Of a DNA stretch of 64,000 bases, positions 25,359-60,545 are shown one piece after another. The notes beneath the pieces were generated by a model, which was not told the origin of the DNA, searched no databases, and saw only the letters and a list, made by a program, of their open reading frames with translations. The number at the start of each line of letters is the position of its first letter. The stretch's first letter is position 1. The translations under genes were made by a program, and so were the position numbers. The stretch covers positions 248,001 through 312,000 of the forward strand of contig JASANG010000864.1 of the NCBI GenBank assembly GCA_030248215.1, written 5' to 3'. The DNA is from Enoplolaimus lenunculus. Lineage: Eukaryota.

Positions 25359-28300
25359 GTAACAACAGCAATAATAATAATAATAATGATTTGTCAAAAG
25401 TAATTTAGAATATTGTGTATACATATTCGTTCAAGCAGTTACGAAAGTGTGTATGTACTGCCCCTGCAATTTCTTGCCAAGCTATAAGTTAGTCGCATTA
25501 AGAGTTTCAGGGGGCCGGGGGCAGATTCAGTTTTTAATTTACAGTTTTTATTTTTGTGTAATTTCAGCAGACGCAAACTCATTCTTGTACACATGTCAAG
25601 GTGAAAGTATTGAAGTTGAGGGAATTGACGATTTAGCAGATTTCAGGGAAACGTGCAAAGCGTTCACTTCATTAGGTGCGTTGACTTTTCGAATTCTTCA
25701 GCACGTGTAGAGTTAAGTAGACATGGATTTTGAATTTGGTTTTATGAGGTCTGTTGCATAAACGCAATCGCGTTTAGTTATACGTATTACATGGGTAGGG
25801 AGTAACGTGTAACGAACGTGTGAGTAAAAATGTTCTGTAACGTTAGTATGATTGTCAGGATATTGTGGTTTGTTAACAATAATAAATTAGAATTGGCTTT
25901 CAGCCAGCAATCACAACACGAACCGGCACACTTGAATTTGGCAGTGATGGTTACCCTAAAACATTCAGTTTGATATAGGTTTGAAGTCTAAGCCACATTG
26001 GAAATACATGTCATATATGTTCATAACTGTTTGTGATTATTGTATATTTTTAGGATTTTTGCCAGAAGAACGTCATTTTGTGTGGAAAATTTTGGCTGGA
26101 ATTTTACATCTTGGCAACATTGGATTCGTCGCTACTGGAGATGATTCGTGTTGCTTTGATGTGTGTATTCTTAGCATATAAGTTTTGCAACTATACATGG
26201 GCGTATCGCGTATAATACGCATTGGAAGTTGGAATTAAATTAAGTTATAGTGCATAATTCAGACATAAGTTTTCGCAAATTGTATTGTATTTTAGCAGAT
26301 TTTTGATTGTTTCAGAGTTTAAAAGTGGCGGATATCAATTTTCTATCTAATTTAAAGGCGTTGCAAATCCAGTTTCTATAATTCAGTTTGTGTAAATATA
26401 ATTTCAAACCTGGTCCTTTGCTGTACTAAATTGCAGTATAATATATGACAGCGTATGTCTAATATGTTGCCGATTTGCTAACCTGGTGTTTTAGTCACAA
26501 AGTACACCATCGCTGAAGCTTGTTTGTAAATTGTGGAAAATTGATCAACGTGAACTAGAAAAATGGGTCCTCAACCGTGCTATTACAACACCATCAGGAA
26601 CGATTGTGAAACCTTTAACTGCTAGTCAAGTAAGTTCCCAGTGGTGGACCGATAATGTTATTGTATTTTAGGAAAATCAGTCCGCAAAAACGTAAGAGTG
26701 TAGCTGCCCTTAAAAATCTAGCGAAGCGCCAATGCCTTAATGTTGTTAAAATAAAATGTACCGCTCTTGAAGAATTATCTAACTGAGTATTTAACTATAT
26801 TTCAGATTGTAGTTGAGAAGGAAAAGTTAAAAAATTATTATTTAAACAAATATTTTGTAAACTCATGACCGAAGCTTAGACCAGTGCGGAAACGAAACGG
26901 CAAACTTTTTGTTTCGATTAACGTGCGCAGAATTACGCGATTTAAAAATATTGCTATTTTTGAAACTAACCGGACAAAAAAGATGTTTTAAATTTTAGGC
27001 GTTTTCGGGCCGCGACGCACTAGCGAAGCGTATTTACTCGTGTGTATTTATGTGGATTGTTGATCGTGTCAATCGGTCATTGAAATCTATTGAAACAACT
27101 GAACGATTTATCGGAGTTTTAGACATATACGGGTACGTTGAAGCTTTGGCGATCAACTACTAGTATATACGTCTGGAATTGCTCAGGCGTAGTCGCTGGT
27201 TGACAGTTTTAATACTTTCATTGGTTTGTTTTTGCGCACGAGGCCGCGGGTGCTGCAGTCGTTCAAATCTTTGCCAAAAGACGTGGCACAGAGGAAGATT
27301 CTGAAACATGTCCTGTAGTATTCTTTTTGTTTCTACAGTAATTGCGGTCTGACGTTAGTTAAATTCTGTTTATTGTGCATAATGTGGGCGCTCGTATAAA
27401 CCATGTTATGAACACGAACACTCTGTGGGTGAAAGCGATAACGTGTCTGAGACTAAAATTAGATTGTGAAAAATGTAACACCGGAATTTTTAAATCCGGT
27501 AAAAATTTACCGGAACCGGAAGGTGAAAAAATGCCGGAACCGGAATTCCGGTTGCACCCTGCATTGTACACGTACTAACAGAGGCGTAGCTACTGTCGGG
27601 ATTTCTTTTCCGAAGGTTATAACATCTTGTGAAAGATTTTTCAAGCGAATGTCGCAAGCGAGCAGAATTTTCTAGCTCTAAATCCAGAGCGTTATTTTGG
27701 ACCCTGTTAACCTTGGGCGATACGTATATTCCTTATCTTGTCTCAACAATCTAGACTGCTCACGTTTGATCAACTTGCATGCGGTTTGTGGCATATTGGT
27801 TGCAGGATTTTTCCGCATTGGGGGCTGTGTTTTTGTAACTCGGTTATGATTTTTTATTTTCCATTTTTGCTTCTGAAATTTTTGGAAGATGTAATCCAGA
27901 ATAAACCTTGTGTGGCTAATATTTGTACATTATTACATAATGCAATTTTGAGAGTGTTTACCGTCGTACTCTCCACGTAGTGGGTAGCGGATTTTTGAAT
28001 CCTTGTTGGATTTTGTTATCCGACAGGGTACTTTTGATATAAAATGGAATGCTATGCGTAGAAGGTACAGTTTGCGACACGAATATAAACTTCAGGAATG
28101 TGCACTAACCTTGGCTAAAATATGCTGGTTTTCGGCATGGGCGTAGTCAGGATTTCATAATGAAGAGATTACGTCCCGTAAAATTTTCGACGGACGGTTC
28201 GTGTGTTGAGAACTGAAACGGGGGGTTGACACCTGAATCTCGCCTGGCCACGCCCTTGGTTTGCTTTTTTAGGTTCGAAACATTCGACGTAAACAGTTTT

Positions 28301-31300
28301 GAGCAATTTTGTATCAATTATGCGAACGAAAAGCTACAGCAGCAGTTTAATCAGGTACCGAGGGTTGATTTCATTTGTTGACTATTATATGCAAATGTGA
28401 CACACGATAGTTAAGTTGAAATAAGTTGTGCGTGTGCGAGGTCTTTTTAGTCAATTTGAAGTTATTGGTTTCGTGCAGGGGTGAATAATGCACCTGTGGT
28501 ACGCCTGGATAGTGGAATACTATGTTAATATATTTGAGTAGGTCACAAATATTTTCTGGACGCATGTATATTGTTTGCCTATTGCAGATTAATTTTTCAG
28601 CAAGGATGTCATATAATTTCAGCACGTTTTCAAACTCGAACAAGAAGAGTATATGCGCGAAGATATTAAATGGTCATTCATTGATTTTTATGATAACCAG
28701 CCGTGTATTGATTTAATTGAAGCGAAACTGGGCATTCTCGATTTGTTAGACGAAGAATGCAAAGTAAGGAATTTTAACTTTTTCATTTTAAGAATTTTGT
28801 TGTTTGCTGGAACTGGCGGCATAAATGACCGTGAAACACAAACATCTGAAGTTATTCTAATCGACTTCTGACATAGATTGTGTCTATACGACACCGCCCA
28901 GATTATAACAGCGTTCTTAATGCTTGTCATATGTATGTACTTATTTGTTTTTCTGAGCTTGATTTTTGAGTGATACGGAACACGTCTGATTTTGAAAATA
29001 AGGTACTGATTGATAATATATTTGCGTGCGGTGGCCAGGGAAATAGCGTCTTAGTGTTTTTTGGCGACTTTCCGATTCTGCCTCCGCTCTTCAAAAACCT
29101 GCATCCAGCATTTCAGTCTCCCATGTATTTGCGCATCGGGCTGTAATTACAATATGCGACATAGAATCTGTTATCTTTTTGTATTTTCTCAGCTCTTCAA
29201 ATGTCTCTATTTCAGTTTCTACGCTCAACTGATCGAACATTTTTCGACAAACTAATCGAGCACTATGGCGCAGGTGACTCGGGCCCAGCGCGTCATTTTG
29301 TTCCCCCTCGTATCGCCGGGCGGTCGACATTTGTGATCGTGCATTTTGCGAGCGATGTCATTTATTCGATTGATGGTTTTTTGGATAAAAACAAAGATTT
29401 AATAAATGAATCGTTGCTTGGCGTTATTCGAGAGTCAAAGGTAAGTGGAAAGTGTTTAGACTGCGTTTGGTCTGGTAAAGGAGGTTTATCGATCAGCTGG
29501 ATTGCATAGTGAATAGTTTTGTCGGTATTATAGTTTTGGATTATTCTGTTTATCTGTCTGTAAGTTAGGAGATGCTTGCCCTGTTTACTAGTATTTGAAT
29601 TTGACGACAAACAGGTTTTTAACCGCTGGCAGAAATTTGGAGCCCTCGAGATTATATTAATCTTTATCTCAACCCTTATTCAATTGTTGATTTTATAGCA
29701 TGTAATATGTTACAAATTTGTATGCATAAGTGCATGTACGTACGTCATGTGAAATTAATATATTGAACATTAAGTTAGACGCCTTCATTTAAGGTCTGTA
29801 AATCAAGTTGTTTGGCATGAAATTAGATGACATTTAAATTTAACCAGCATTTGGGGTATCTTAAAAATGTTGTATGTGTTGCTATGTTTAACAAAGTGTT
29901 TTAGCTTGAAATGCTCAAGGAAATCATCGAGTTGTCTGAAATCGTAAAAAATTCGGATGCTTCCGGAGCTCCGACAACGGCAGCTGGACTGGCCGGTCGG
30001 GCACGTGCTCTTGCTGCTGGACGCTTAAATGCTGGATCTGCATCGTCGTCGCTGCAACAATCGAAGATTCAACAAGCGAACAAAAAATCGGTTGGGTTAA
30101 AGGTTAGCAGGAAAGGTGGAGTATAGCGAGCGGGGCGGAGGTTCGCTGTTAGCTTTTGTAATCGTAGCAATTGTTAATGCTCAAAGTGGATGATCATTCC
30201 ATCCATTATTGTTCATGTTAAGTAGATTTAATTGAAATTTAAAGCGTTCGGAGATATTGCGAAACTAGAACTACAGCATACAAGTTTTTCAAACTATTTT
30301 GTAGTTTCATTGAAATTATGTCGTGAAATCAAACTTTCAGTTCAAAGAGTCATTGCGTGCGCTTATGGATGTACTGAACGCAACAACGCCTCATTATGTT
30401 CGATGCATTAAACCAAACGATTCAAAAAGCCCTTTTTTGTTCGATGATAAACGCGCGATACAGCAATTAAGGGCGTGTGGTGTACTGGAGACAATACGTG
30501 TTTCGGCTGCTGGCTACCCTTCAAGGTAGTAGTAGCTGTTTATTTGCACCGAATTTACCGCATCACGAATATTATGCACAAAATATCATAGTCAAATAAT
30601 TGCATCACACTTTCCTTGCTCTATACATTTAATATAACTCGTTTTCTAGAGACCAGTGCAACACCGTTATAACCACCAAAAATTACCTCGAACTCTTTTA
30701 CTCACAAAATTGAGAAAGCTTTTTTCAAAGCTATAATCACACGTTTCTTAAAATATGGTATCGTCTGTAATTTTTTTGCTTTTTCCCTACCCTTAAGATA
30801 TTCTAATCGAGTTTGCCCAATTGCCCGTTGTGCAATCTGAGTAATAAGATTGAAAACGTGTACTGCCTTTATAGTTCCTTTGGAAATTCCAAACATTAGA
30901 TCGTGATGTAAAATTTCCGTTTTCCCGTCAATCTTTGTAAACATGGCGTCAAAAACTCCCACAAATCTTGGGCCCTTATACATTGTAACATTACATGTTT
31001 AATATCTTCTTTTAAAAAGTGATCATGGTCTCTACAAAACACGCATTCCGCGCTTATTCCTTTATATTTTGACTCTCTATCGGCTGTGGCTAAACCTTTA
31101 TGAACCGCCATAAAATGTATATGTCTGGAATAACCGTCCACAAACTTTGTCTTAAAAGCTGGGATTGTTACTTGAATCGTAAACTTCTCTGATACTCCAA
31201 ACTCTTTATTCCAATACAATTGCATTCTTTTACATCCGTCTTTATTTTCTTTTACCATTTTTATCTCTACTATGTCGGAAAGACTTGCTGTTTTTAAAAT

Positions 31301-34300
31301 AAATGTTTTCCTAACACACTTACTCGATACTGATCAATGCGATAGAATTAATACGATTTGCATGCCATACACAAATGTGTATACAAAAACTGGAATGCCC
31401 GGGTTTTGCAAAACCCACTGCATATTATTGATATGCGGCATTATAACCTCTAGATAGTGGTCAAAACTTTCGTGCCATCTTAACGATTCAGTAGTTCGCC
31501 ACCGGTTAATAATTGTAAAAATTCGTTGCCCTTCTATCCGAGCTTTGATATCCGGTAAATTTATGCCTCCAATCTTTTTGGGAGCCGTAGTGTTTGTTTA
31601 GAGAGTAGATTAATTTGCTTGGATACCATAAATATCGGTCCATTGCTCTCTATTCTCCTTAAAAATCACTTTCCGGCCACCAAATAAAAGTATAATGCCA
31701 CAAAATAGACAAAAAGTATGTATTAAGTAAATAAACTTTACCATACAAGGAAATTTCTAACGGTGCTTTCGAACCTTCTTAAGTTGTTATTGTTGCTTGA
31801 GGTTTCTGCAGCATCTCCTTATTCTGCTCTTTTCCAAAAAACACCCAAAAAATTTTATAGTATCTTGTATCCATTGCCTATAAACTACGGGGATTTGAAA
31901 ATTTTCAGCTGGTCCTAATAGAAGAATTTTAGATTTTTCTGGTCTTAATCAAGATCCGGAAGCCTTTATGAAACTATCACAACATCTTAAAGCTCTATCC
32001 ATACTTTCAAATTCTTTTACCGGAATTGTAGTATCATCAGCATATTTAATAATTTTCACCTCACTTTCTTTTAAAAGAATTCCCTTAATTCAGCTATCAT
32101 TTCAAATTGCATCAGCCAGAGGTTCTGTGGTTATGGTATATAGCATTGGGGATAGGGGACACCCCTGCCTTAAACCTCTAGTAATTTTCACTGGGATTGA
32201 AATTAACCCATTTATCACTGCTTGATGTTACTATACCCTCTTGATAGATACATTTCAACCACTTAATAAAGAAGTCACCTAAGCCAACATTTTGTAGACT
32301 GAAATAAAAAACCCATTCAATGTAATCAAACGCAAACGCATGATGTACACTGGTTAAAATACCTGCGTTGCCGTGGATATTACACTCCTCAATTAAACTC
32401 ATCGTACATAAAATTGCATCTCTTATATCTGGTTGCAAAACGGAGCACGTTTGATCCGGATGTACATTGGTCTTCATGTGACATCTTAACCTTCTAGCCA
32501 GTATGGATGTAAGTATTTTATAATCAACATTCATACTCTTTGTTAAATGTCCCTTATGAAAACAAGAATAGGAGCTATTTGCATTGAGAACCTCTTGTAA
32601 AATTCTGCAGTTAGTCCGTTTGAGCCGGGAGATTTATTTGTTTTTAAATCAGAAATGGCCTTTTGTATTTCAGAAACGGTGAAATCTGAGTTAAGAAAAG
32701 AGGTTTCGGTTGAACTTAACTTCCGATGTGTCTGGCTTAAAAATTGTTCGGCTAAGTTATTATCAATTTTCTCGGCCTTATAGAGGGAAGCGTAATGTTT
32801 ACAAACTTCAGCTATGATATCGTGATTCGTTGTATATATCCCCTTTTTCTGAAATTACCCTATGCATTATCTTTTCGCTAATCGACTTCGCTTTTATTTT
32901 CTTAGCAGTAATTAAAGAAATTTTATCAGAAGCCAAGTTATGAAATCTGCTCTTAACTAAAATATTAGACTTTTTCTTTCTTAATGAGGCTAATTTCAAA
33001 TTCCGTATTATCTAACTGTTGATTCATAGCTGTATTTTGTAACGTCACTTTTTGTCTCAGATGCTCCAATTTTTTTATTCAGGCTAAGCCACCTATTAAG
33101 AAGTTGTGCATTCTTTTCTATCTCTAGAAAGGGTAACACTATGCGTAAATTTGCTTTAAAGTTTTCCCATTTTTTAGTATACCATCACTGTTATCAAAAG
33201 TTTCAGAAATATTCAATTTGTCAGAAACAGTCCTATCTACCTCCTCATTTAATAAAAGATCATCACGTAATTTCTAGTACGATCGTCCCGTGAAGCGGTT
33301 TACTTCCGCCATATCAAAGCGAATGTAAAAAATATCATGGTCTGCAAAAGATATTATCTTTTTCCTGCCTGTTGTCACCCGTTTTAGCCAATCGGTCGAA
33401 ACGTAAGTTCTATCTAGCCTGACCGATGTATTATAAACCTTAGACGTGAAAGTGTAGAAATTTTTTTTCCTTTGGGTGTAAAAATCTTAACGCATCTTCA
33501 ACTAATAGGGTTTCTTTCATTGATAGGAATTGAGACAAACCATACTCTCGAAAATGATTGGTATTTGACCTATCTTTTTTGGGTTCTTCAACTATATTAA
33601 AATCCCCTACTATCACGTATTTGACATGTTTAAAATTTTTTCTGGTAATAAAGTCTTTACTTTTCATAAAAATTCCATCTAAGTGCATGGTTACCTGGGG
33701 CATATACTCAAACAATTACTACTTGATATGATTGCAATTCTAGGATTACAAGGGCGGCTCTTCCTGGAATTAATTCTTCGAAAATGTTGACTTGCACGGG
33801 GAAAATATAATTCAATAAAAGCGAGAGTCCCGCCTTTTCTCTGTGCTATACGAATGGAAAATTCTGAAATTCACCCCAAAAATCTGGTTAAAATTTGCCA
33901 CTTGGGCATCATTCTTGAAGTATGTTTCTTGCAGGGTGCAACCGGAATTACAATTTACCGGAACCGGAACCCGAATTTGAAAATTTTACCGGAACCGGAA
34001 CCGGAAAGTGAAAAATGCATTTCACCAAAAATTTCATTTTAATCTTATTTTTTGCTCTATTATTTGTGAAATAACCTTAGTCGAACATAGGTATTCATTT
34101 TATTTGTTGTATTTTGGATTTTCATCATCGACTGAAGTGAAATCCACCATCAATGGCTTATATTCGGAGTACAAGTGGCTTTCAAGAGAGATTCTTAAAA
34201 ATTAGCAAAGTTAAGAAAACGGCCAAATTATAATACCGGAATTTTTAAATCCGGTAAAAATTTACCGGAACCGGAACCGGAAGGTGAAAAAATGCCGGAA

Positions 34301-37300
34301 CCGGAATTCCGGTTGCACCCTGGTTTCTTGTATGCAAATTATTTGCATCGAAACAATCTTACTTAGTAATATTTCGTATTTCCAGTTTTGCTTCTTTAAA
34401 CCATTCGCATTGATTGTTGCCAAAGCAACCGTCATAGCACTTGTATAGAGACACAAATCATAACAATAAAATATTAACACCTAAAAAAACCGTGCGTATT
34501 TCATTTTCTTTATGCATCGCCCTTAATTTTATTAAGTTTTCTTTCTTTTCTCGTTTTCTATTCACCGATAAATCACACACACCTTGTCGTTTCTGCGGGC
34601 CCGGACTCGCCGTATGCTTGCCATAATCCGCTAACGAAGTAGCCCGTTTCCCTGCAAAATTCAAATCGCGACGACTTTTCCGACTTAAAATACCTCGTAA
34701 ATATGTGAGTAAGCATCCCATACCATTTTTCCCTGGATAATTGTTGTGGTCATTTATAATTCTGCTATCTTGAGGCCCATAGGCACAACCCCAAAAAGGT
34801 TCCTTACTTGCTTCCACAAGTAAGGAGCCACCTGTATCAGTCAATAAACTGTGCAACCTTTCATTTTGGGTGTATTTAGCATAATTTGCTGTCAATAAGA
34901 AATCCACAGCGAAATCGTTCCAGACTAAATTCTCCGCAAAGAGTAACCGTTCCCCATGTTTTTTATCTCGACAGGATCACTCATAGCTTTAAGTTCTGCC
35001 GCATCCTGTAGTAAACCCATAAAAACCACCTTGTTCACAAACAAAAATTGTTCATTACAAATATATTCAATGTTATCCTCTATAATCGGACAAACGTAGT
35101 GATTGGAAAACTCTGGGTAGCTTGTGCCCTTACTATAGAAATGCAAAGCCTTAAGGTTGAGTAGAAATCGAAAATTGTTTGTATACAGGGTTTGATGTTG
35201 GACCAAACTAGTTTGGGCCCGTAGCTTTACTTAGTATAAAGACAGGCTATTTTACGTGTATTTGCTGTTTAACAATGTGTTCTAGCTTTTGGCTGCGTAA
35301 ATTTTGCGCAGGGGACTATTGTTTTCCAACGGAAGTGGCAAGCAAGTAAAATAAGTTAATTACAGAAGATGCATGACTTATTTCAGAATTCAGCTTACCG
35401 AAATTTTTTGACACAGCGCAAATATCGACGATGATTACCGTGATATCGGAGCGAAATTTTTTATTGGCTAAAAGTTTTTACTTTAGAACAACTTACGGTA
35501 ATTTTGTTGATCGCTATTGGGTTCTGGTTCCAAAGAAACAGTTAGCAAGAAACGATCTGCGATTGACTGCGGAAAAAATTTGTGCTAAAGCACTTGAGGT
35601 ATGCAGCACAAACACTGAGATTTGGTGTAATAAAGTTTCTGAAGTTTCAAGCTTTTCCTGGCAATGTTGCAGATTTTTATTGCAATATTGCAGATTCAAA
35701 TTTTATAACTCAAATTTTAAATCTATTATTGAACTCGGTGTTTGAGCATTATTTGTTAATGGGTGAGTGTTTTGTTTTGAACGACTCTTTTAATTGTAGT
35801 TAGATACGGCGTTATCTTTATTTGGAATTTATCGTAGGAATTATAAATATAAATTTAGCAAAATGTGTTTCATTGCCTTGCACTGAAACTGAAACCTTAG
35901 TGTATAAGTTGTAGGATCGAAGTATGTACGAGTTTGGCAAAACGAAAATTTTCTTCCGAACCGGGCAGATTGCGACCCTGGAACGTATTCGAAGTGATAC
36001 ACTGCGGGATTGTGCAATTGTTATTCAAACACAAGTTCGTGGTTGGCTTGCACGTGTTAGATATGCACGCATGCGCGAAGCGTTGCTGCTTATGCAGCGT
36101 TCTATGCGAGCATATATGGTATGGAGGTGAGTTTTCCTATTTATTAGTTGGTTTTTATTTGTTGGTTAATTAATCATAGTGGTTTCAAAGTTGAGTAATT
36201 GCGATTTATATTTGCTAATGGGTTGCATAAAAGACTTAGTCAACATGATGGCAATATTTGCAACGCTAAACCACATATTGTTCGCAAAATTTCTGGATAC
36301 TGCGCAAGTTGCTTTCGTTATGATTAAGTACACAAAAACAGAAACAGTTCCCTAATTATGTGGCAGGTGTTCCGGATTTATTAATAGAAATATTGTTAAG
36401 CCAACGGATAAACTGTAGTTTTCATGGATTATTTTTAATGTGTGTATTTAGGCGGATGCATTTTGTTCGTATTCACCGTGCTGCGATTACACTACAAGCG
36501 TATTATCGAATGTTTCGAGAGCGTAAGAGATACGTTGCATTACGTGATTTTGTTGTCCAACTGCAAGCTCAATGTCGTGCACGACTGGTGCGTGATTACA
36601 TGTCGAAGGTAAGGTTGAATTTGAATGCCAGTATTGTCATGTCAAACAGTTCAGTATGTAGAATATAGGTTGCGCTATACTTGCTGTGTGAGAAATTGAA
36701 CCCGGTGATGGATGTGGGCATTTGAAAATATTTTGAATTATTAGTTTCGGTAAATTGAAAATGTAATGCGAACACAAAACTCATTGAAATATGGTATCAA
36801 ATCCTAGAGTATCTGTCCAATAAATTTTTTACAAACACCTGAATAATTGTGGAATTTCGTTTTTGCCAACCAATTCAACGCAACTCGAGACTGAGATTAT
36901 TGAAAAACGTCTGTATTAATAGATACAATATCATCGCAAAGCAATAATCATACAACGTTATTTTCGAGCGTATCTCGCTCGACAAATATTCTTGCGCAAA
37001 CGGCGTGCAGTGGTGCTGTTGCAGTCGTGTGTTCGACGGATGATCGCAAAACGCAAATTGCGAGAGCTCAAGGTATGGGTAGCTAGTGTAGCATATTTAT
37101 AGATTCGATTGCATCGTAAAATTTATTAATGGAAGGAATTCGTTGAAAGAAGAAAGTTATTGCTGAAAAGAGAATATTTGCGATTTGTCGTTTCGTTTTT
37201 TTGCCAACTTAACGAAAAATTGCTATCTTGAATTTATTTTTCTATAGACGTTAAGACCTATAACTATTTATTGTTAGGCGCTACACACAGTTGAGAATAC

Positions 37301-40300: not shown

Positions 40301-43300
40301 TAGTTGGAAAAAGGTAATTGCTCGCCTAAAAGGAATCCGGATAATCAGATGTTATTTCGAAACCGCAGTGATGTTGCCAGAATCTTGTTTAAAATTTTTT
40401 GAAAACACTAAAAAATTTTATATAAGTGCGTGAAATTTCTTCCTGTGTATTAGTGGCTGACATGAAAAACACCTTGCATTTTTAGAAGACTCGTGCGGTG
40501 TGTTAATCATTCTACATACATCTAGGCTGCACAGAATGTTTTTGAGGCACACTATGAAGTTAATAATAATTTTCAGTCATAAGAGTAAAAACAATAAACT
40601 TTCTCTTGTTTCAGTCTGAAGAGCTTTCTATTGAGAATGTTAAGCTCAAGAAAGTTTTACGCAAGTTGGTCAGTCAGGCAACTGTGGATGCGGATAATTC
40701 AAAAGGTTTGTGTGCTATTTTTAAGTTTTTGTTTTTTGATCGAAAATAGTCAAAGGCTTATGTTTTAATTTTGAAAATGTTTTAGCTTGACAATATTTTG
40801 GGTTTCTACAGGTTGGTAGGATCACTAACTACCCATGCTATACACTAATGGCTGGGTCTCTGGGCAACGAGCATGGTAATGATAGTTAAATTACAAACTG
40901 TTATTAACGAACTATTCTTCTAACTCGTGATTTGAGTTGACGTTTTGAATGTTCAGAAGTTCTATTGAAACTGCAAGATGAACTTGAACGCAAACGCGAC
41001 GAAAGTGTACATTTGCATGCGCTATTAGCTCGGGTTACTGAGCAGCGCGGAATTCGAATGGACGGAGAGTTGAAAAATAACCTTAATACACTCCAATTGG
41101 CATACGCACGTCAGAATCAAACTATATTGTAAGTACATTCACGATCAAAGTATAAATTATAAGTATGTAGACAGAGTAAGTAGTGTGTTTCTGATCGGAT
41201 ACGCTTGTTACATGGATATTTGTATTTTGCTTACGTATTAGCCAGTATATTCGAATTTCTTTATAGCAAAAATCCAGTTTCTGTAGATTCTGTTTGTTAA
41301 GGTACATTAACTGTTTCGTTATATAGCAGTGTAAATATCAATCAGCAGGGTGCAACCGGAATTCCGGTTCTGGTTCCGGCATTTTTTCACCTTCCGGTTC
41401 CGATAAATTTTTACCGGATTTAAAAATTCCGGTGTTATAATTTGGCCGTTTTTTTAGCTTTGCTAATTTTTAAGATTTTTTTTTGAAAGCCACTTGTACT
41501 TCTATTGTTTTTGAATTGCTTGTTCATGCAGTGATTGTTGTGGACAAAAGCATTTTACTGGAAATGTATATATAAATCTTGACAATCATCGAATAAAGGC
41601 CATTGATGGTGGATTTCACTTCAGTTGATGATTAAAATCTAAAATACAACAAATAAAATAAATGCCTATGTTCGACTAAGGTTATTTCACAAATAACAGA
41701 GCAAAAAATATGATTAAAATTAAATTTTTGGTTAAATGCATTTTTCACTTTCCGGTTCCGGTAAAATTTTCAAATTCCGGCTTCGGTTCCGGTAAATTGT
41801 AATTCCGGTTGCACCCTGTCAATTAGTTGATGCCGCGTTTGGTTTTAATCATTGGGAAATATAGGAAATTCTACTGGATTATTTACTAATAGGTAGCGGA
41901 AAGAAATTTGTTTCCGTTGTTGATAGATTGTCTATCATTGAAACAATATAATTTCATTGTGTTCTATTTTAGCACTTTGTTGCAACAAATTGAAGATCGT
42001 GATATGAAAGTAATTGATCTCGAGCATACACTGTCTGGGAAAACTTCAGCGAAAAAGAATGAGTTCCAGGTGTGTTTAATGCTGTTATGATTTGCTTAGT
42101 TTAGTAGCTAAAATCAAGAGTTTATTAGGTAAGTGTGTGACACTTACGCGATTGAGCAGCTAATTTTGTGTAGCGTCATGGACTTTTTTGACGGGTTTCA
42201 AGGCATATTTCAATACTAAATCGAGTATACACATTGCAACAGTCTTTTGCACAAAACAGCAAAAGCTGCAACAATACCCCCTCTTAGATTAGGGAGGGGG
42301 TTTGCCATATGGGGTCCGCGTGATTTTGCAAACTGCAACACGTGAGAATAGAAATTGTCGCACTCATATGCTTAGTAAAATGAGTTGAATATGACGTGTT
42401 GTTTCCTTCTGTTAGAGTTGGTCTAGTTCGATGTACGCAAAGTAGTTGTGGAGGATTCATAAATGAAACCACGCTGCAGTCGGATATTAGGGGCGCTACA
42501 GCAGTTTCTATATGTGAAGTGAAGTGTGCAGTGGCGTGTTTGGTAGGTTATCGAGGAGTACTTTAACATGTCATATTAACAAATTAGCGACTTTTTGATG
42601 ACAGCGTGTGTCCAGATCTAGTTGAAAGCTTTGTTGCGTTACAGGTTTCTGGTAGTCAAGCACCTGATTGGGAAACCATGGATCCGTCAATGAAGAGTGA
42701 AGTAGAACGAATTCTACTAGAGAACGTGGTAGGCAGACTCCGAGTGCAGATTTTGTTTTATTGAATGTTTTTATTTTGAATTATGCTCGCAGTAGTGAAG
42801 GTTACAGTGATTGGCGTCATAGGCCCATGTGTGAACTGATGAGGCAAAGCTGATTTCCATATTATAGGATCTTCGAAGTAAACTTGACCGCCGTGCTCGC
42901 CAGGTAAAGAAACTACGGCAGCACGTAAGCGTAGATCGCATCAAATCGATGGCGCCGTATGATTGCAATGGTACGTTTAACTTTGTGAATTACGTATTGT
43001 TGGTATTGCAGACTAAGACAGTGATAGCGAGACGTTCTGCCTGCAGTAGCGTCAAATTTAATCCGGCAACCTCGTTATGGAGCATATTTCATGTTTTTAT
43101 GTGCAACAAAGTAAGCGTACGCATACTATATTTGGACGAAATAAACTCGAGCTTTCAAATTTGTTGTTACCTTTACCTTTGTGTACCGTTATTTGGTTTC
43201 ACTTATATAAAATATGGTTAATATGAGGAAACGGGGAGTATCGTCACTCTTCTCTGCATAAGTTGCTAACCCTGCTTCATCAAACATGTGAATTGAAACA

Positions 43301-54001: not shown

Positions 54002-57000
54002 ACAATTTGTGATACAATAAAATTTTGTTTACCATTTCAGTTTGTTTACTGCGTTCGTATGTTTATAAAATGTTCACAGTTGATTGCGAACTTATTGGCT
54101 GTGGTTCGGTTTGAACGATTGCTGTTTTGTTTATGACGAAGACTTAAATATTTAATTCTTGAAGGCTGATTTTGGCCAAAATTGAACTCGTAAAATTTTC
54201 ATCTTTTCTCATCGGCTATTTTGTAATTATGGAATAAATAAGTGTAATATAACGTTTTGAAGCGAATGTGTCGAAGGTTCAGACAGAGTGGCTTAATGGG
54301 GGCTTGTTGTGAAACAAACCACGAGTTGTAGACGATACTAAATATGTATGTATTTAGCTTTTTGTGTAGGGTTTCTCTCGGTGGTTTGGAATTTTTCAGA
54401 GGGCCGTCCCGGTTTCTGGTCGGTCTGTAAAAGTGCAGGCTTACATTCTAGACTACATTTTTTGCTTAGACTTAGGCTTAGGAATACGCTTAATCTACTG
54501 TTACGGCCGCAAAAGTAACGTTGACCGATTTTGGTATAATTCAGCGTTTGAATTAGATTAAGCTTGTGCGGGAAAATATACAGCACTGGAGCAACAGGTT
54601 GGTGTAATGTTATGAGTTAGATATGGACATGAAGTTGCACGCTTTAGGCAGAGGTGGATTCAAAAATTTTTAACGGGGAGGGGCGGACTCGCAAATGTTA
54701 TGAAATGCAAAAATTGTAAGGTAGGAAGGAACCTTACCATTTTATCACAAAAAATCTGCGGGGAAAATGTGTTTTTACAAAAAAGTTTCTGAGGGGAAAA
54801 ATTGTAAGGTAGGACCTTACCATTTAAACACAAAAAAATTTCTGGCGGGAGGCGTACGCCCCCCCCCCTCTCCGCAGCTCTCTGAATCTGATGGTGGCAT
54901 TAGGTTCAGAAAATAACAATTGTTTAGTAATGTATAAAATGATCAGAATTTGATGCAGGGGATCCGTATCTATCCCGGTACTTTCCGCTTGGGTATGGCC
55001 TGCCTTATGATATGCACATAAATTTTGATTTGATTGCACATATTTTTATCGTTCGGCCAACATTTATCTCAAAACATTTTCACAGAACTTCGTGACAGCT
55101 TCGGTGCCGAGTTATCATCAGTTGTTTTAGCATACAACCGAAGGTTGATCTTTATTTTATAAATTCTGCACGCCACTTATTTAGCTCTGAACGGAGCTGT
55201 GTTTATTCTGGTACTAGGCGGAGACATTTTGTTAAATTTCTAGGAGGAGTCCAGATTCCGTACCTCCGCCCTGGTACTCTCTAAAAACTTAAACTTAAAT
55301 TATAGCTTAACTGAACTTGAATATTAGTTTAAGTAAAACTCAAATAGCTAGACGGACTTACTAAAGTAGCATTTTAAGTTTTACTTAAACTAACATATTT
55401 TTAAGCTCAACACGAGTTTAAGTAAACTTATTTTGGGTTAAAGAAACAAAATTATCGCAGAAATTATGTGTATCTAAGAGTTCATTAAGCTTAGCTTAAA
55501 CTAAAAATACTTAAAATACATTTTAAAAAATTTCGCGTTCAGCGCTACTGCAATGTTAACTGCATTGCAAATTTAACCGTTTACCTACAAGGTCTAAAGA
55601 TCAAACCGCTCCTCCGGACCGTTGAGAACTTTACTTTGTATTGAGTTGAGATTCAATTCAAATAGACTGAGCACCTTCGAGCTCGCTACGCTCTCGAGGT
55701 TTCATTATCCTTCCTACCATTGGTTTTTGCCTCCACGTTTCTTAGACATGGTTTTTTAGATGTTTCGAAAATTGACGCTCAAAAACTTTAAATTTGTATT
55801 GAGATTCAATATTATTGCGTTTGACCTCTCGCTCGCTTTGCTTGCAATATCTTTCTGTATGGTCAAAAATTAGTCTATAGCAACCGTCGTTAAATTTACA
55901 GAAATTTATATTTTGCCGGATTTTGAGCTATATTAATAAGATTTTGACATCATCAGGGGGTCTCGTTTGCTGGGTTTCGGGACCTCAGGTACTCCAGCGG
56001 CGGCCCTGATTTGATTAAAATTTTAGTTAGCTGCCACTTGTGATTTATTCGCTTATTTTAGTTTTTAAGATATAATTGAAAAAGTTCAACTTTTATTTGA
56101 TAATATCGTACCACAAGGCAATTGCAACGCTATAAAATGTGAAATTTTCAACTCTGGTTTCATAATACGATATCGTGCATTATTGGTCAATATTATTTAT
56201 ATAACCATTTGTTTCATTTGTCACTCATACGCATTAAGACTGCCCTGTCAGAAACCTATGGGGTTATTGCCTGAAACACCGCTTTATATCGTCAGAGTCG
56301 TGTACAGGGGGATAATATGGGATAACTTCCATCAATCCCCAAATTACTGGAGAGACGAGAATAAGTTGTTCTACCAGTTTTCAAAATAACCTGCTGGATG
56401 CCAGAGTAGAGTCGAAAAATTTGTTCGTTTGCTCACAATAATACTACTTGTATATATGAGGTACCATCCTACTGAAAAGGAATTTTGGCTACGCCCCCCC
56501 CCCTGGCAGGGGCCGCTAAATAATTTTTGCAGCTTAACTCTCGTCGTTTAAGCTTTCACCGCGATGACGTTTTTGTATAAGAAGCCAGAGTTTTTGCGTT
56601 TATCGGTATGTGTGCAACGGGGGTATCGGATGAAACATTAAATCTGTGTATTTCAACCATTTTGTGGTTCTTATTGGCATTTTGTCAGTCAAACCAATCT
56701 TTTGCAGTTTGTGATGGAATGTTTTTTTAACTTAAGATTGAACATTGGCGATGTCTTTGCACAACGGCAGTGTCAGCTCAGGAGCAGACATGGTGAACAT
56801 CATATTTTTTGTGTCAATTTTAAATCCTAAAATCAGACTGCAACTGGAGTTCCGGTTCCGGCATTTTTCACCTTTCGGTTCGGGATATTTTTTCTTCGAT
56901 TTCGGTTGTGGTTCCGGTAAATTGTAAGTCCTGTTGCAACCTGCCTAAAATGTCTTGTTCTTCCAGCATTTTTTGTCAATTTCGGTTCAGGTTCCGGTAA

Positions 57001-57426
57001 AGTATATTTCCGGTTGCACCTTGCCGAAAATGCATTGTTCTGGAATTGTATTCAAGCTATTCATATCGCGTATTAACTTTTTTATCATGTCAACATGAAA
57101 GCGTAATGCCAAAATGCTAAGTTTACAAGCGGTCAAGTATCCGAAATAGAATTTGTTTGCTTGTTGCGGTGCAAAAAATCAGTGGAAGTGACGCGGATCA
57201 AAATAATACTGAGTCCCTTTGCTTTTGGTATATTTTACAGCCAGAAGGCATACTTATAATACGTATGTGTACTTAATATTTTTACTTTAAATGTTTTCGA
57301 TCGTTCTAAATACTTCATATCTCAAAGTTCAACTGATCTAAAATCAGTGATTAAGTCTTAACGGATGCTTTATTTCGTAATTTTAATCGCCGTCGATTCA
57401 GTTCACCAAGCGTCTCCATATCTGAT

Positions 57427-60122: not shown

Positions 60123-60545
60123 CAGGGTGCAACCGGAATTAAAATTTACCGAAACCGCAATCCTGAATTTGAAAAAATTACTGGAAACGGAACCGGAAGA
60201 TGAAAAAGTCATGCCACCAAAAATTAATTTTAGTTTTCTTTTTTGCAATATTATGTATTCGTGAAATAATACTAGTTGAAGATAGGTATTCACTTTATCA
60301 TTTTAGATTTTCATAATCCACGGAAGCGCAATCTACGTTCGATGGTTTATTTTTGGCGATTATCAAAGTTTATATACTATAATACGTATACGAATTAAGT
60401 TACTTAATTTTTTATCGTCATTTTTTTGCTAAAATATCATAGTTTCCGCGGATCAAAATTTAACACCGGAATTTTTAATTCCGCTAAAAGTTTACCGGAA
60501 CCGGAAGGTCAAAAATTGATGAACCGGAATTCCGGTTCCATCCTA
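60123..60545. mobile_element. hAT-like MITE, older copy of the CAGGGTGCAACCGG family
   Basis: Starts cagggtgcaaccggaatt and ends gaaccggaattccggttccatccta; colinear with 33932-34322. Further degenerate pieces at about 56835-57022. Confidence 0.8.

What the first reader, a model, noticed from the sequence alone, without database searches (positions are those of the whole stretch)
30621..35230. L1/Tx1-type retrotransposon whose ORF1 carries a NADAR (ADP-ribose/N-glycosidase family) domain
Seen: on the minus strand a NADAR/YbiA-like domain, split by one frameshift near 34950, ends at 34458. The ATG of an APE-RT-CCHC ORF2 follows 22 nt later at 34435. The NADAR region has no introns, whereas the host genes here are intron-dense, and it shows the same kind of decay as ORF2, so it appears to be part of the element. 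Established: characterised NADAR proteins include E. coli YbiA (an N-glycosidase for damaged riboflavin intermediates) and the antitoxins that remove ADP-ribose from guanine in DNA in DarT1-NADAR systems; L1-clade ORF1 proteins are normally coiled-coil/RRM/zinc-knuckle RNA chaperones. Inference: this family may have captured an enzyme that reverses host ADP-ribosylation of its RNA, cDNA or target DNA, analogous to viral macrodomains, which would point to a host-transposon conflict fought through nucleic-acid ADP-ribosylation. The conserved Glu (LVEAS) is present, while the usual Asp before WG reads KEPFWG. I am not aware of this architecture being characterised, but could not search for it.
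Basis: partly seen in the sequence, partly recalled or inferred. Interest (0 to 1): 0.9.

Follow-up and report, generated by a model that had tools for sequence, protein, structure and literature searches.

The report
Dead LINE copy with NADAR ORF1
This is a broken, front-truncated copy of a jumping gene (a LINE retrotransposon) inside an intron of a myosin gene; the remaining end of its first gene is a NADAR domain, which likely stripped ADP-ribose from RNA or DNA bases, and the same pairing was already mentioned in print for oyster elements, untested.

Summary
NADAR passes Pfam's cut-off. The element (30528-35152, minus strand) lies in a myosin intron between two copies of a 5-bp repeat. A second, 82%-identical copy stops matching at 35153 and continues upstream, so this copy is 5'-truncated at the NADAR start and 35158-35230 is host intron. 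The domain groups (SH-aLRT 99) with 13 relatives, 8 carrying an RRM/zinc-knuckle N-terminus: NADAR is added to an ordinary ORF1, not a replacement. Differences between the copies favour third codon positions (22 of 36). The catalytic Glu is kept in 13 of 13 relatives; KEPFWG is private to this copy. NADAR in ORF1 of oyster Tx1 LINEs was noted in 2025 (PMC12477816), and this scan found it on other DNA (19 findings, at least 5 genomes). No second copy was shown joined to ORF2. Function is untested; published NADARs remove guanine-N2 ADP-ribose, not the PARP15-made mark. Both copies share the frameshift, unexplained.

The parts
30314..30525 (+). Host myosin motor-domain exon (start approximate) ending at the insertion site
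   Evidence: Myosin_head E 4e-23; joins in phase with the exon from 35486
30523..30527 (+). Left copy of the candidate 5-bp target-site duplication; spans the exon end and the splice donor
   Evidence: chance of such a match under a generous window 0.068
30528..30544 (-). 3' end of the element: polyadenylation-signal-like hexamer followed by a short three-base repeat tail
   Evidence: sequence; role inferred
30621..34435 (-). ORF2 (APE, RT, C-terminal zinc-binding region), dead: 19 stop codons in the six profile-matched pieces and several frame changes
   Evidence: closest intact protein P0158 (1170 aa), itself closest to human L1 ORF2p in the PDB
33924..34330 (.). MITE 33932-34322 with 18-nt terminal inverted repeats and an 8-bp duplication, inserted later into the endonuclease region
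   Evidence: a 471-nt paralogous contig runs on into ORF2-like sequence without it (loose end read by hand)
34458..34685 (-). Basic C-terminal tail of ORF1 with a KR...SP...KR pattern like that of the relatives
   Evidence: 34582-34619 also matches the second copy
34686..35140 (-). NADAR (YbiA-type) domain, complete in length, in two frames
34953..34964 (-). Frame change within NADAR, at a run of A and G; the second copy has the same offset
35153..35157 (+). Right copy of the candidate target-site duplication = 5' truncation point
   Evidence: similarity to the second copy ends at 35153
35158..35485 (+).
   Evidence: next myosin exon from 35486

Best explanation
This is a dead, 5'-truncated L1-group LINE insertion whose remaining ORF1 piece is a NADAR domain; in the active family ORF1 was likely an RRM / zinc-knuckle RNA-coating protein ending in NADAR, which would have removed ADP-ribose from bases of the element's own RNA or cDNA. 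Shown: the domain, its place inside a repeat-bounded insertion, a second copy, a clade of intact RRM-CCHC-NADAR proteins, kept catalytic residues. Inferred: the missing N-terminus of this family, enzyme activity, the substrate (guanine-N2, perhaps cytidine, ADP-ribose) and its source (a pierisin/CARP-like host or microbial transferase). Odds: about 0.92 that NADAR is a real ORF1 module, about 0.5 that it is an active base-ADP-ribose hydrolase working for the RNP, about 0.3 that it counters a dedicated host defence.
For: Pfam and PDB matches. Insertion limits agree with the end of similarity to a second copy. 14-row clade, SH-aLRT 99, in a 159-row tree; 97 in a 42-row subset. 8 of the 13 relatives match an RRM-CCHC profile (6 are its seeds); Pfam finds zinc knuckles in P0006 and P0022; the P0006 model matches 8BAU and YbiA (E 5e-8, 2e-7) with weak RRM hits. 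Positions equivalent to 8BAU E43, K50, W89, E125, D130, W133 are kept in 12, 13 (K or R), 13, 13, 13 and 12 of 13 relatives; these residues bind ADP-ribose or catalyse in PMC11543638. Third-position bias between the two copies, 22 of 36 listed differences, p 6e-4. NADARs reverse guanine base ADP-ribosylation on DNA and RNA; a sponge NADAR is active; clams have a guanine-N2 transferase; NADAR and Macro are largely mutually exclusive in animal RNA viruses.
Against: No relative was seen in its DNA context, so their being LINE ORF1s rests on domain layout; 0 of 112 fetched loci hold an RT or RRM-CCHC match. The second copy's 4-kb contig was not shown to carry ORF2. The R79 position (phosphate binding in 8BAU) is Glu in this copy and in 8 of 13 relatives, against Arg/Lys in 125 of 147 other rows, so the pocket differs. 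NADAR does not remove PARP15-made guanine-N1 or phosphate-end marks. In human L1, PARP1/2 promote retrotransposition. No host transferase was identified. Both local copies are broken.
Confidence: 0.5

Rival explanations
1. NADAR is a kept ORF1 module that acts in RNA or nucleotide clean-up (RNA-end repair by-products, soluble ADP-ribose derivatives, damaged nucleotides) and not against a host defence.
For: Proposed in PMC12477816 and for RNA-repair-linked NADARs in PMC9503650; PMC11543638 says the natural targets of orphan NADARs may differ from ADP-ribosylated guanine; altered R79 position.
Against: [quoted passage not shown]
Confidence: 0.25
2. The domain is an ADP-ribose reader that helps the RNP find PARP-marked nicks or chromatin; hydrolysis is secondary.
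For: PARP1/2 promote human L1 retrotransposition; earlier scan notes report families that lost the catalytic residue yet kept the domain (unchecked).
Against: This clade keeps the catalytic Glu in 13 of 13 relatives and changes a phosphate-binding Arg instead.
Confidence: 0.15
3. Chance adjacency or a one-off template switch onto a host NADAR mRNA.
For: No ORF1 N-terminus in the window; no second copy shown joined to ORF2; the 5-bp repeat alone has a 7% chance level.
Against: The domain groups with RRM-CCHC-NADAR proteins and not with stand-alone NADARs; it has their basic tail; no introns; a second copy under codon-level constraint; same layout in oyster Tx1.
Confidence: 0.06
4. The frame change shared by both copies is a programmed -1 frameshift that sets how many ORF1 molecules carry a whole NADAR.
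For: No net indel between the copies over 34854-35153 although the third-position bias switches frame; this copy has a slippery-type heptamer there (motif recalled).
Against: The second copy has a substitution that spoils the heptamer; no stable structure downstream (z -0.85, 0.0, -0.91); intact relatives have NADAR in one frame; homopolymer runs lose bases easily, so two independent losses are plausible.
Confidence: 0.05

Closest known systems
ORF1 of Tx1 LINE families of Crassostrea gigas with YbiA-family NADAR (Repbase; one paragraph and Fig. S2 of PMC12477816)
   Same: NADAR in ORF1 upstream of an L1-group APE-RT ORF2; YbiA-type Glu
   Different: This is a dead, truncated copy in another genome; kinship with the oyster families could not be tested (Repbase not held, figure not readable)
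Ectocarpus Gypsy lineage IV with NADAR at the start of Pol (PMC12477816)
   Same: Retrotransposon-borne YbiA-type NADAR
   Different: LTR element, domain on Pol, best hits bacterial
Phytophthora NADAR (PDB 8BAU), E. coli YbiA (2B3W), DarT1-associated NADARs (PMC11543638)
   Same: Fold (relative P0006) and E43, K50, W89, E125, W133 positions
   Different: Fused to an RNA-binding ORF1; R79 position mostly Glu, R93 position Ala in the clade; D130 is Glu in this copy only; no linked toxin
NADAR domains in polyproteins of invertebrate positive-strand RNA viruses (PMC9503650)
   Same: Selfish RNA replicon carrying NADAR; proposed counter to host ADP-ribosylation
   Different: Proposal untested there too; here on a retrotransposon coat protein
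Type I LINE ORF1 (RRM followed by CCHC knuckle; PMC4120745)
   Same: Layout of the N-terminal half of the relatives
   Different: Extra linker, NADAR and basic tail; the N-terminal half is missing from this copy

Membership tests
NADAR (PF08719) | Score above Pfam gathering cut-off | tested here: met
   53.7 bits against 35.1 for the C-half alone
NADAR (PF08719) | YbiA-like fold | tested here: met
   Shown for the intact relative P0006 (Foldseek E 5e-8 to 8BAU, 2e-7 to 2B3W), not for the broken window protein
NADAR, YbiA subfamily | Glu at the 8BAU E125 position | tested here: met
   Window and 13 of 13 relatives (definition)
NADAR ADP-ribosyl hydrolases | Full set of ADP-ribose contacts of 8BAU (E43, K50, R79, D86, W89, R93, E125, D130, W133) | tested here: inconclusive
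   E43, K50, W89, E125, W133 kept; D130 is Glu in this copy; R79, D86, R93 not kept, but D86 and R93 vary widely in other NADARs too
NADAR ADP-ribosyl hydrolases | Hydrolysis of base-linked ADP-ribose | not testable with these tools
   needs an assay
L1-group non-LTR retrotransposon | ORF2 with APE, RT and C-terminal zinc-binding region | tested here: met
   nearest intact protein P0158 matches human L1 ORF2p at E 1e-73, R2 at 2e-14
L1-group non-LTR retrotransposon | 5' truncation, target-site duplication, 3' tail | tested here: met
   the duplication is only 5 bp (chance level 0.068)
Tx1 clade | RT phylogeny groups with named Tx1 elements | not testable with these tools
   None of the 120 listed RT relatives carries a Tx1 name; Repbase not held
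Tx1 clade | Target-sequence preference (common, not universal; PMC4494074) | not tested
   Only one insertion site is known
Type I ORF1 (RRM + CCHC) | RRM upstream of a CCHC knuckle | tested here: inconclusive
   Absent from the window by truncation; present in 8 of 13 clade relatives
Oyster NADAR-bearing Tx1 families | Sequence kinship of NADAR and RT | not testable with these tools
   The supplement's alignment is a picture; only its legend was read

The most novel reading that the evidence does not exclude
Invertebrate LINEs of several ORF1 types (RRM-CCHC, Transposase_22, PHD/esterase; all seen among the 150 best hits) carry an active NADAR that erases guanine-N2 or cytidine ADP-ribose placed on their RNA or cDNA by a pierisin/CARP-like host transferase: an undescribed chemical anti-transposon defence and its counter-defence.
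Probability: 0.3. Interest if true: 0.8.

Novelty: new member of a known kind. Interest (0 to 1): 0.32.

Why it matters
The roles of animal NADARs are unknown (PMC11125620). A NADAR fixed on the RNA-coating protein of LINEs, with catalytic residues kept across a divergent clade, points to base ADP-ribosylation as something retrotransposon RNA or cDNA meets in invertebrates, and gives a direct test: assay an intact ORF1 NADAR and look for the transferase. This copy adds little by itself: it is dead, truncated, and the pairing has been noted in print. Intact relatives such as P0006 are better material.

Tried and rejected
No whole genome is held, so copy number and full-length copies could not be surveyed. 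Word-indexed protein searches gave nothing for the C-half (0 of 42 candidates) and only P0006 for the clade profile (1 of 7991). The protein atlas gave no result. Scans for DNA context: viral contigs 0 confirmed loci; metagenome contigs best 80 of 259; none of these 112 loci matched seven window or relative pieces for RT flank, APE, zinc region or RRM-CCHC at E 0.01 (the RT-core query in that call was in the wrong frame and counts for nothing). No RNA holder listed. Programmed frameshift: no downstream structure. Systematic homopolymer error as cause of the shared frame change: unlikely, A/T runs of 5-6 lie in myosin exons that stay in frame and run contigs match the window letter for letter. 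The idea that ORF1 naturally stops near 34560 was dropped: the second copy stays in the same frame there. Several independent captures of NADAR by LINE ORF1s: not shown; one clade is not rejected (p-AU 0.135, 42-row subset; the 159-row test did not finish). The loose end of run X3 at 34941 looked like an allele at the frameshift but is adapter-like (label recalled). Targeting of a splice-site or spliced-leader motif: one site only, no paper found for it. Literature: searches found one paper linking NADAR/YbiA to retrotransposons (PMC12477816) and none with a functional test; subscription journals and Repbase Reports are not covered. Supplement files 1, 2 and 6 of that paper and its Fig. S2 picture could not be read.
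Full report
1. What is there. On the minus strand, 34461-34976 matches Pfam NADAR positions 82-162 at 53.7 bits (cut-off 35.1) and 34928-35230 matches positions 2-75 in another frame (E 4.8e-4). The domain spans about 35140-34686, followed by a basic tail to the stop at 34458 and an ATG at 34435. A profile of 35 intact ORF2 relatives maps APE, RT and the C-terminal region from 34429 to about 30720 in several frames; the six main pieces hold 19 stop codons. A MITE (33932-34322, 18-nt inverted ends, 8-bp duplication) splits the endonuclease. The host gene is a myosin on the plus strand (motor and IQ exons; myosin V-like by my recall). The host is an animal by inference (homeobox gene, Tctex-1, myosin); it was not identified.

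2. Limits of the insertion. The myosin exon ends at 30525 and joins in phase with an exon starting at 35486. The same five bases lie at 30523-30527, across the exon end and donor, and at 35153-35157. On the element's strand a polyadenylation-like hexamer and a short repeat tail precede the left copy. A 5-bp match alone is weak (0.068 by chance in a generous window), but an independent marker agrees: a 4029-nt contig in the sequencing runs matches 34854-35153 at 82% and 34582-34619, stops matching at 35153, and its next 30 bases read without a stop in the NADAR frame (read by hand). The three runs are at most two samples of one study and two may be the source of the window. A contig of the other sample bridges 35153 without differences, so the insertion is not private to one sample.

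3. Is NADAR part of ORF1? HMMER against 1.84 billion representatives gave 645 hits; the best 150 were kept. Pfam on the 58 of at least 240 aa shows NADAR with a zinc knuckle (P0006, P0022), with Transposase_22 (P0051) and with PHD plus GDSL esterase (P0147). In a tree of 159 NADAR domains (129 from these proteins and the window, 30 from every third distinct locus; fragments and two duplicates left out) the window falls in a 14-row group with SH-aLRT 99, nearest P0006 (41% identity) and P0125. Eight of the 13 relatives match an RRM-CCHC profile, six of them by construction; the other five are fragments. They share a KR...SP...K tail. An AlphaFold model of P0006 has a confident N-terminal domain with weak RRM matches, a disordered linker and a NADAR fold. 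RRM followed by CCHC is the type I LINE ORF1 layout (PMC4120745, passages). Limits: none of these proteins was seen in its DNA context (contigs of 1.1-8.1 kb), scans of viral and metagenome contigs returned only NADARs without LINE neighbours, and the second copy's contig was not shown to carry ORF2. A separate 471-nt contig matches the ORF2 start and lacks the MITE.

4. Selection and residues. Of 36 listed differences between the two copies (12 rows were not shown), 22 fall on third codon positions when each half is read in its own frame (p 6e-4; C-half 11 of 15, N-half 11 of 21, p 0.056). By hand count 17-18 of 36 are synonymous. The second copy is also dead (a stop at the W89 position). Mapped on 8BAU (residues from PMC11543638, passages), the window keeps E43, K50, W89, E125 and W133. 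The 13 relatives keep E125, D130 and W89 without exception. R79 is Glu in the window and 8 of 13 relatives, but Arg or Lys in 125 of 147 other rows: a clade-specific change in the phosphate pocket.

5. An unexplained detail. The two copies have no net indel over 34854-35153, yet the third-position bias switches frame near 34953-34964, so both carry the same offset. Independent loss in a homopolymer run is my best reading. A programmed frameshift is unlikely: no downstream structure, the slippery-type motif is spoiled in the second copy, and relatives have NADAR in one frame.

6. Mechanism. Most likely the active element made an RRM-CCHC ORF1 that coated its RNA and carried NADAR at its end, placing an N-glycoside hydrolase on the RNA and nascent cDNA (inference). 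NADARs reverse guanine ADP-ribosylation on DNA (PMC11543638, passages) and RNA, and are inactive on phosphate ends (PMC11833690, abstract); some, including a sponge enzyme, also clean cytidine (PMC12945103, abstract and section 2.5). They do not remove the guanine-N1 mark made by PARP15 (bioRxiv 10.64898/2026.03.31.715305, passages), and PARP1/2 help human L1 (PMC10760644, passages). A defence would therefore need a guanine-N2 transferase such as clam CARP-1 (PMC11209040, passages); none could be sought in this host. Rivals are RNA or nucleotide clean-up and ADP-ribose reading.

7. Prior art. PMC12477816 (passages; supplement legend) reports YbiA-family NADAR in Pol of Ectocarpus Gypsy elements and in ORF1 of several Crassostrea gigas Tx1 families, function unclear. 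It was the only such paper in five searches. PMC9503650 (passages) describes NADAR in invertebrate RNA viruses. PMC11125620 (abstract and passages) and PMC4494074 (passages) gave background. This scan has 19 earlier findings with these words in at least 5 genomes, none from this genome or by sequence likeness. ORF2 is L1-group; placement in Tx1 proper was not testable.

8. Verdict. A real NADAR-bearing ORF1 remnant in a dead LINE copy: new member of a kind noted once in print, with a worthwhile but untested functional question. Interest 0.32.

Noticed in passing
window 33932-34322; also 41346-41818, 60123-60544, 27470-27561, 56839-57023: A MITE family (18-nt inverted ends, 8-bp duplication, hAT-like by recall) with at least four more copies or fragments in the window and very high summed contig depth in the runs.
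   Followed up: partly
window 30523-30527 and 35153-35157: The insertion duplicated the myosin exon end and splice donor, so the exon now uses a donor whose downstream bases come from the element's tail.
   Followed up: partly
window 34953-34964: The frame offset in NADAR is shared with an 82%-identical second copy.
   Followed up: partly
proteins P0051, P0060, P0070, P0101, P0046, P0147, P0148: NADAR also ends ORF1-like proteins of other layouts (coiled coil plus Transposase_22; PHD plus GDSL esterase). One origin for all ORF1 NADARs is not rejected.
   Followed up: partly
window 34941, run X3: A contig ends here in an adapter-like loose end (label recalled) with higher depth over 34941-35978; probably a library artefact.
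   Followed up: no
window 10245-10541 (-) and 225-3699 (+): Tctex-1 family gene and a homeobox gene upstream of the myosin gene.
   Followed up: no
window 30869-31402: Summed contig depth is several-fold higher over this part of ORF2's 3' end than over the rest of the element; short 3' fragments elsewhere are a possible cause.
   Followed up: no
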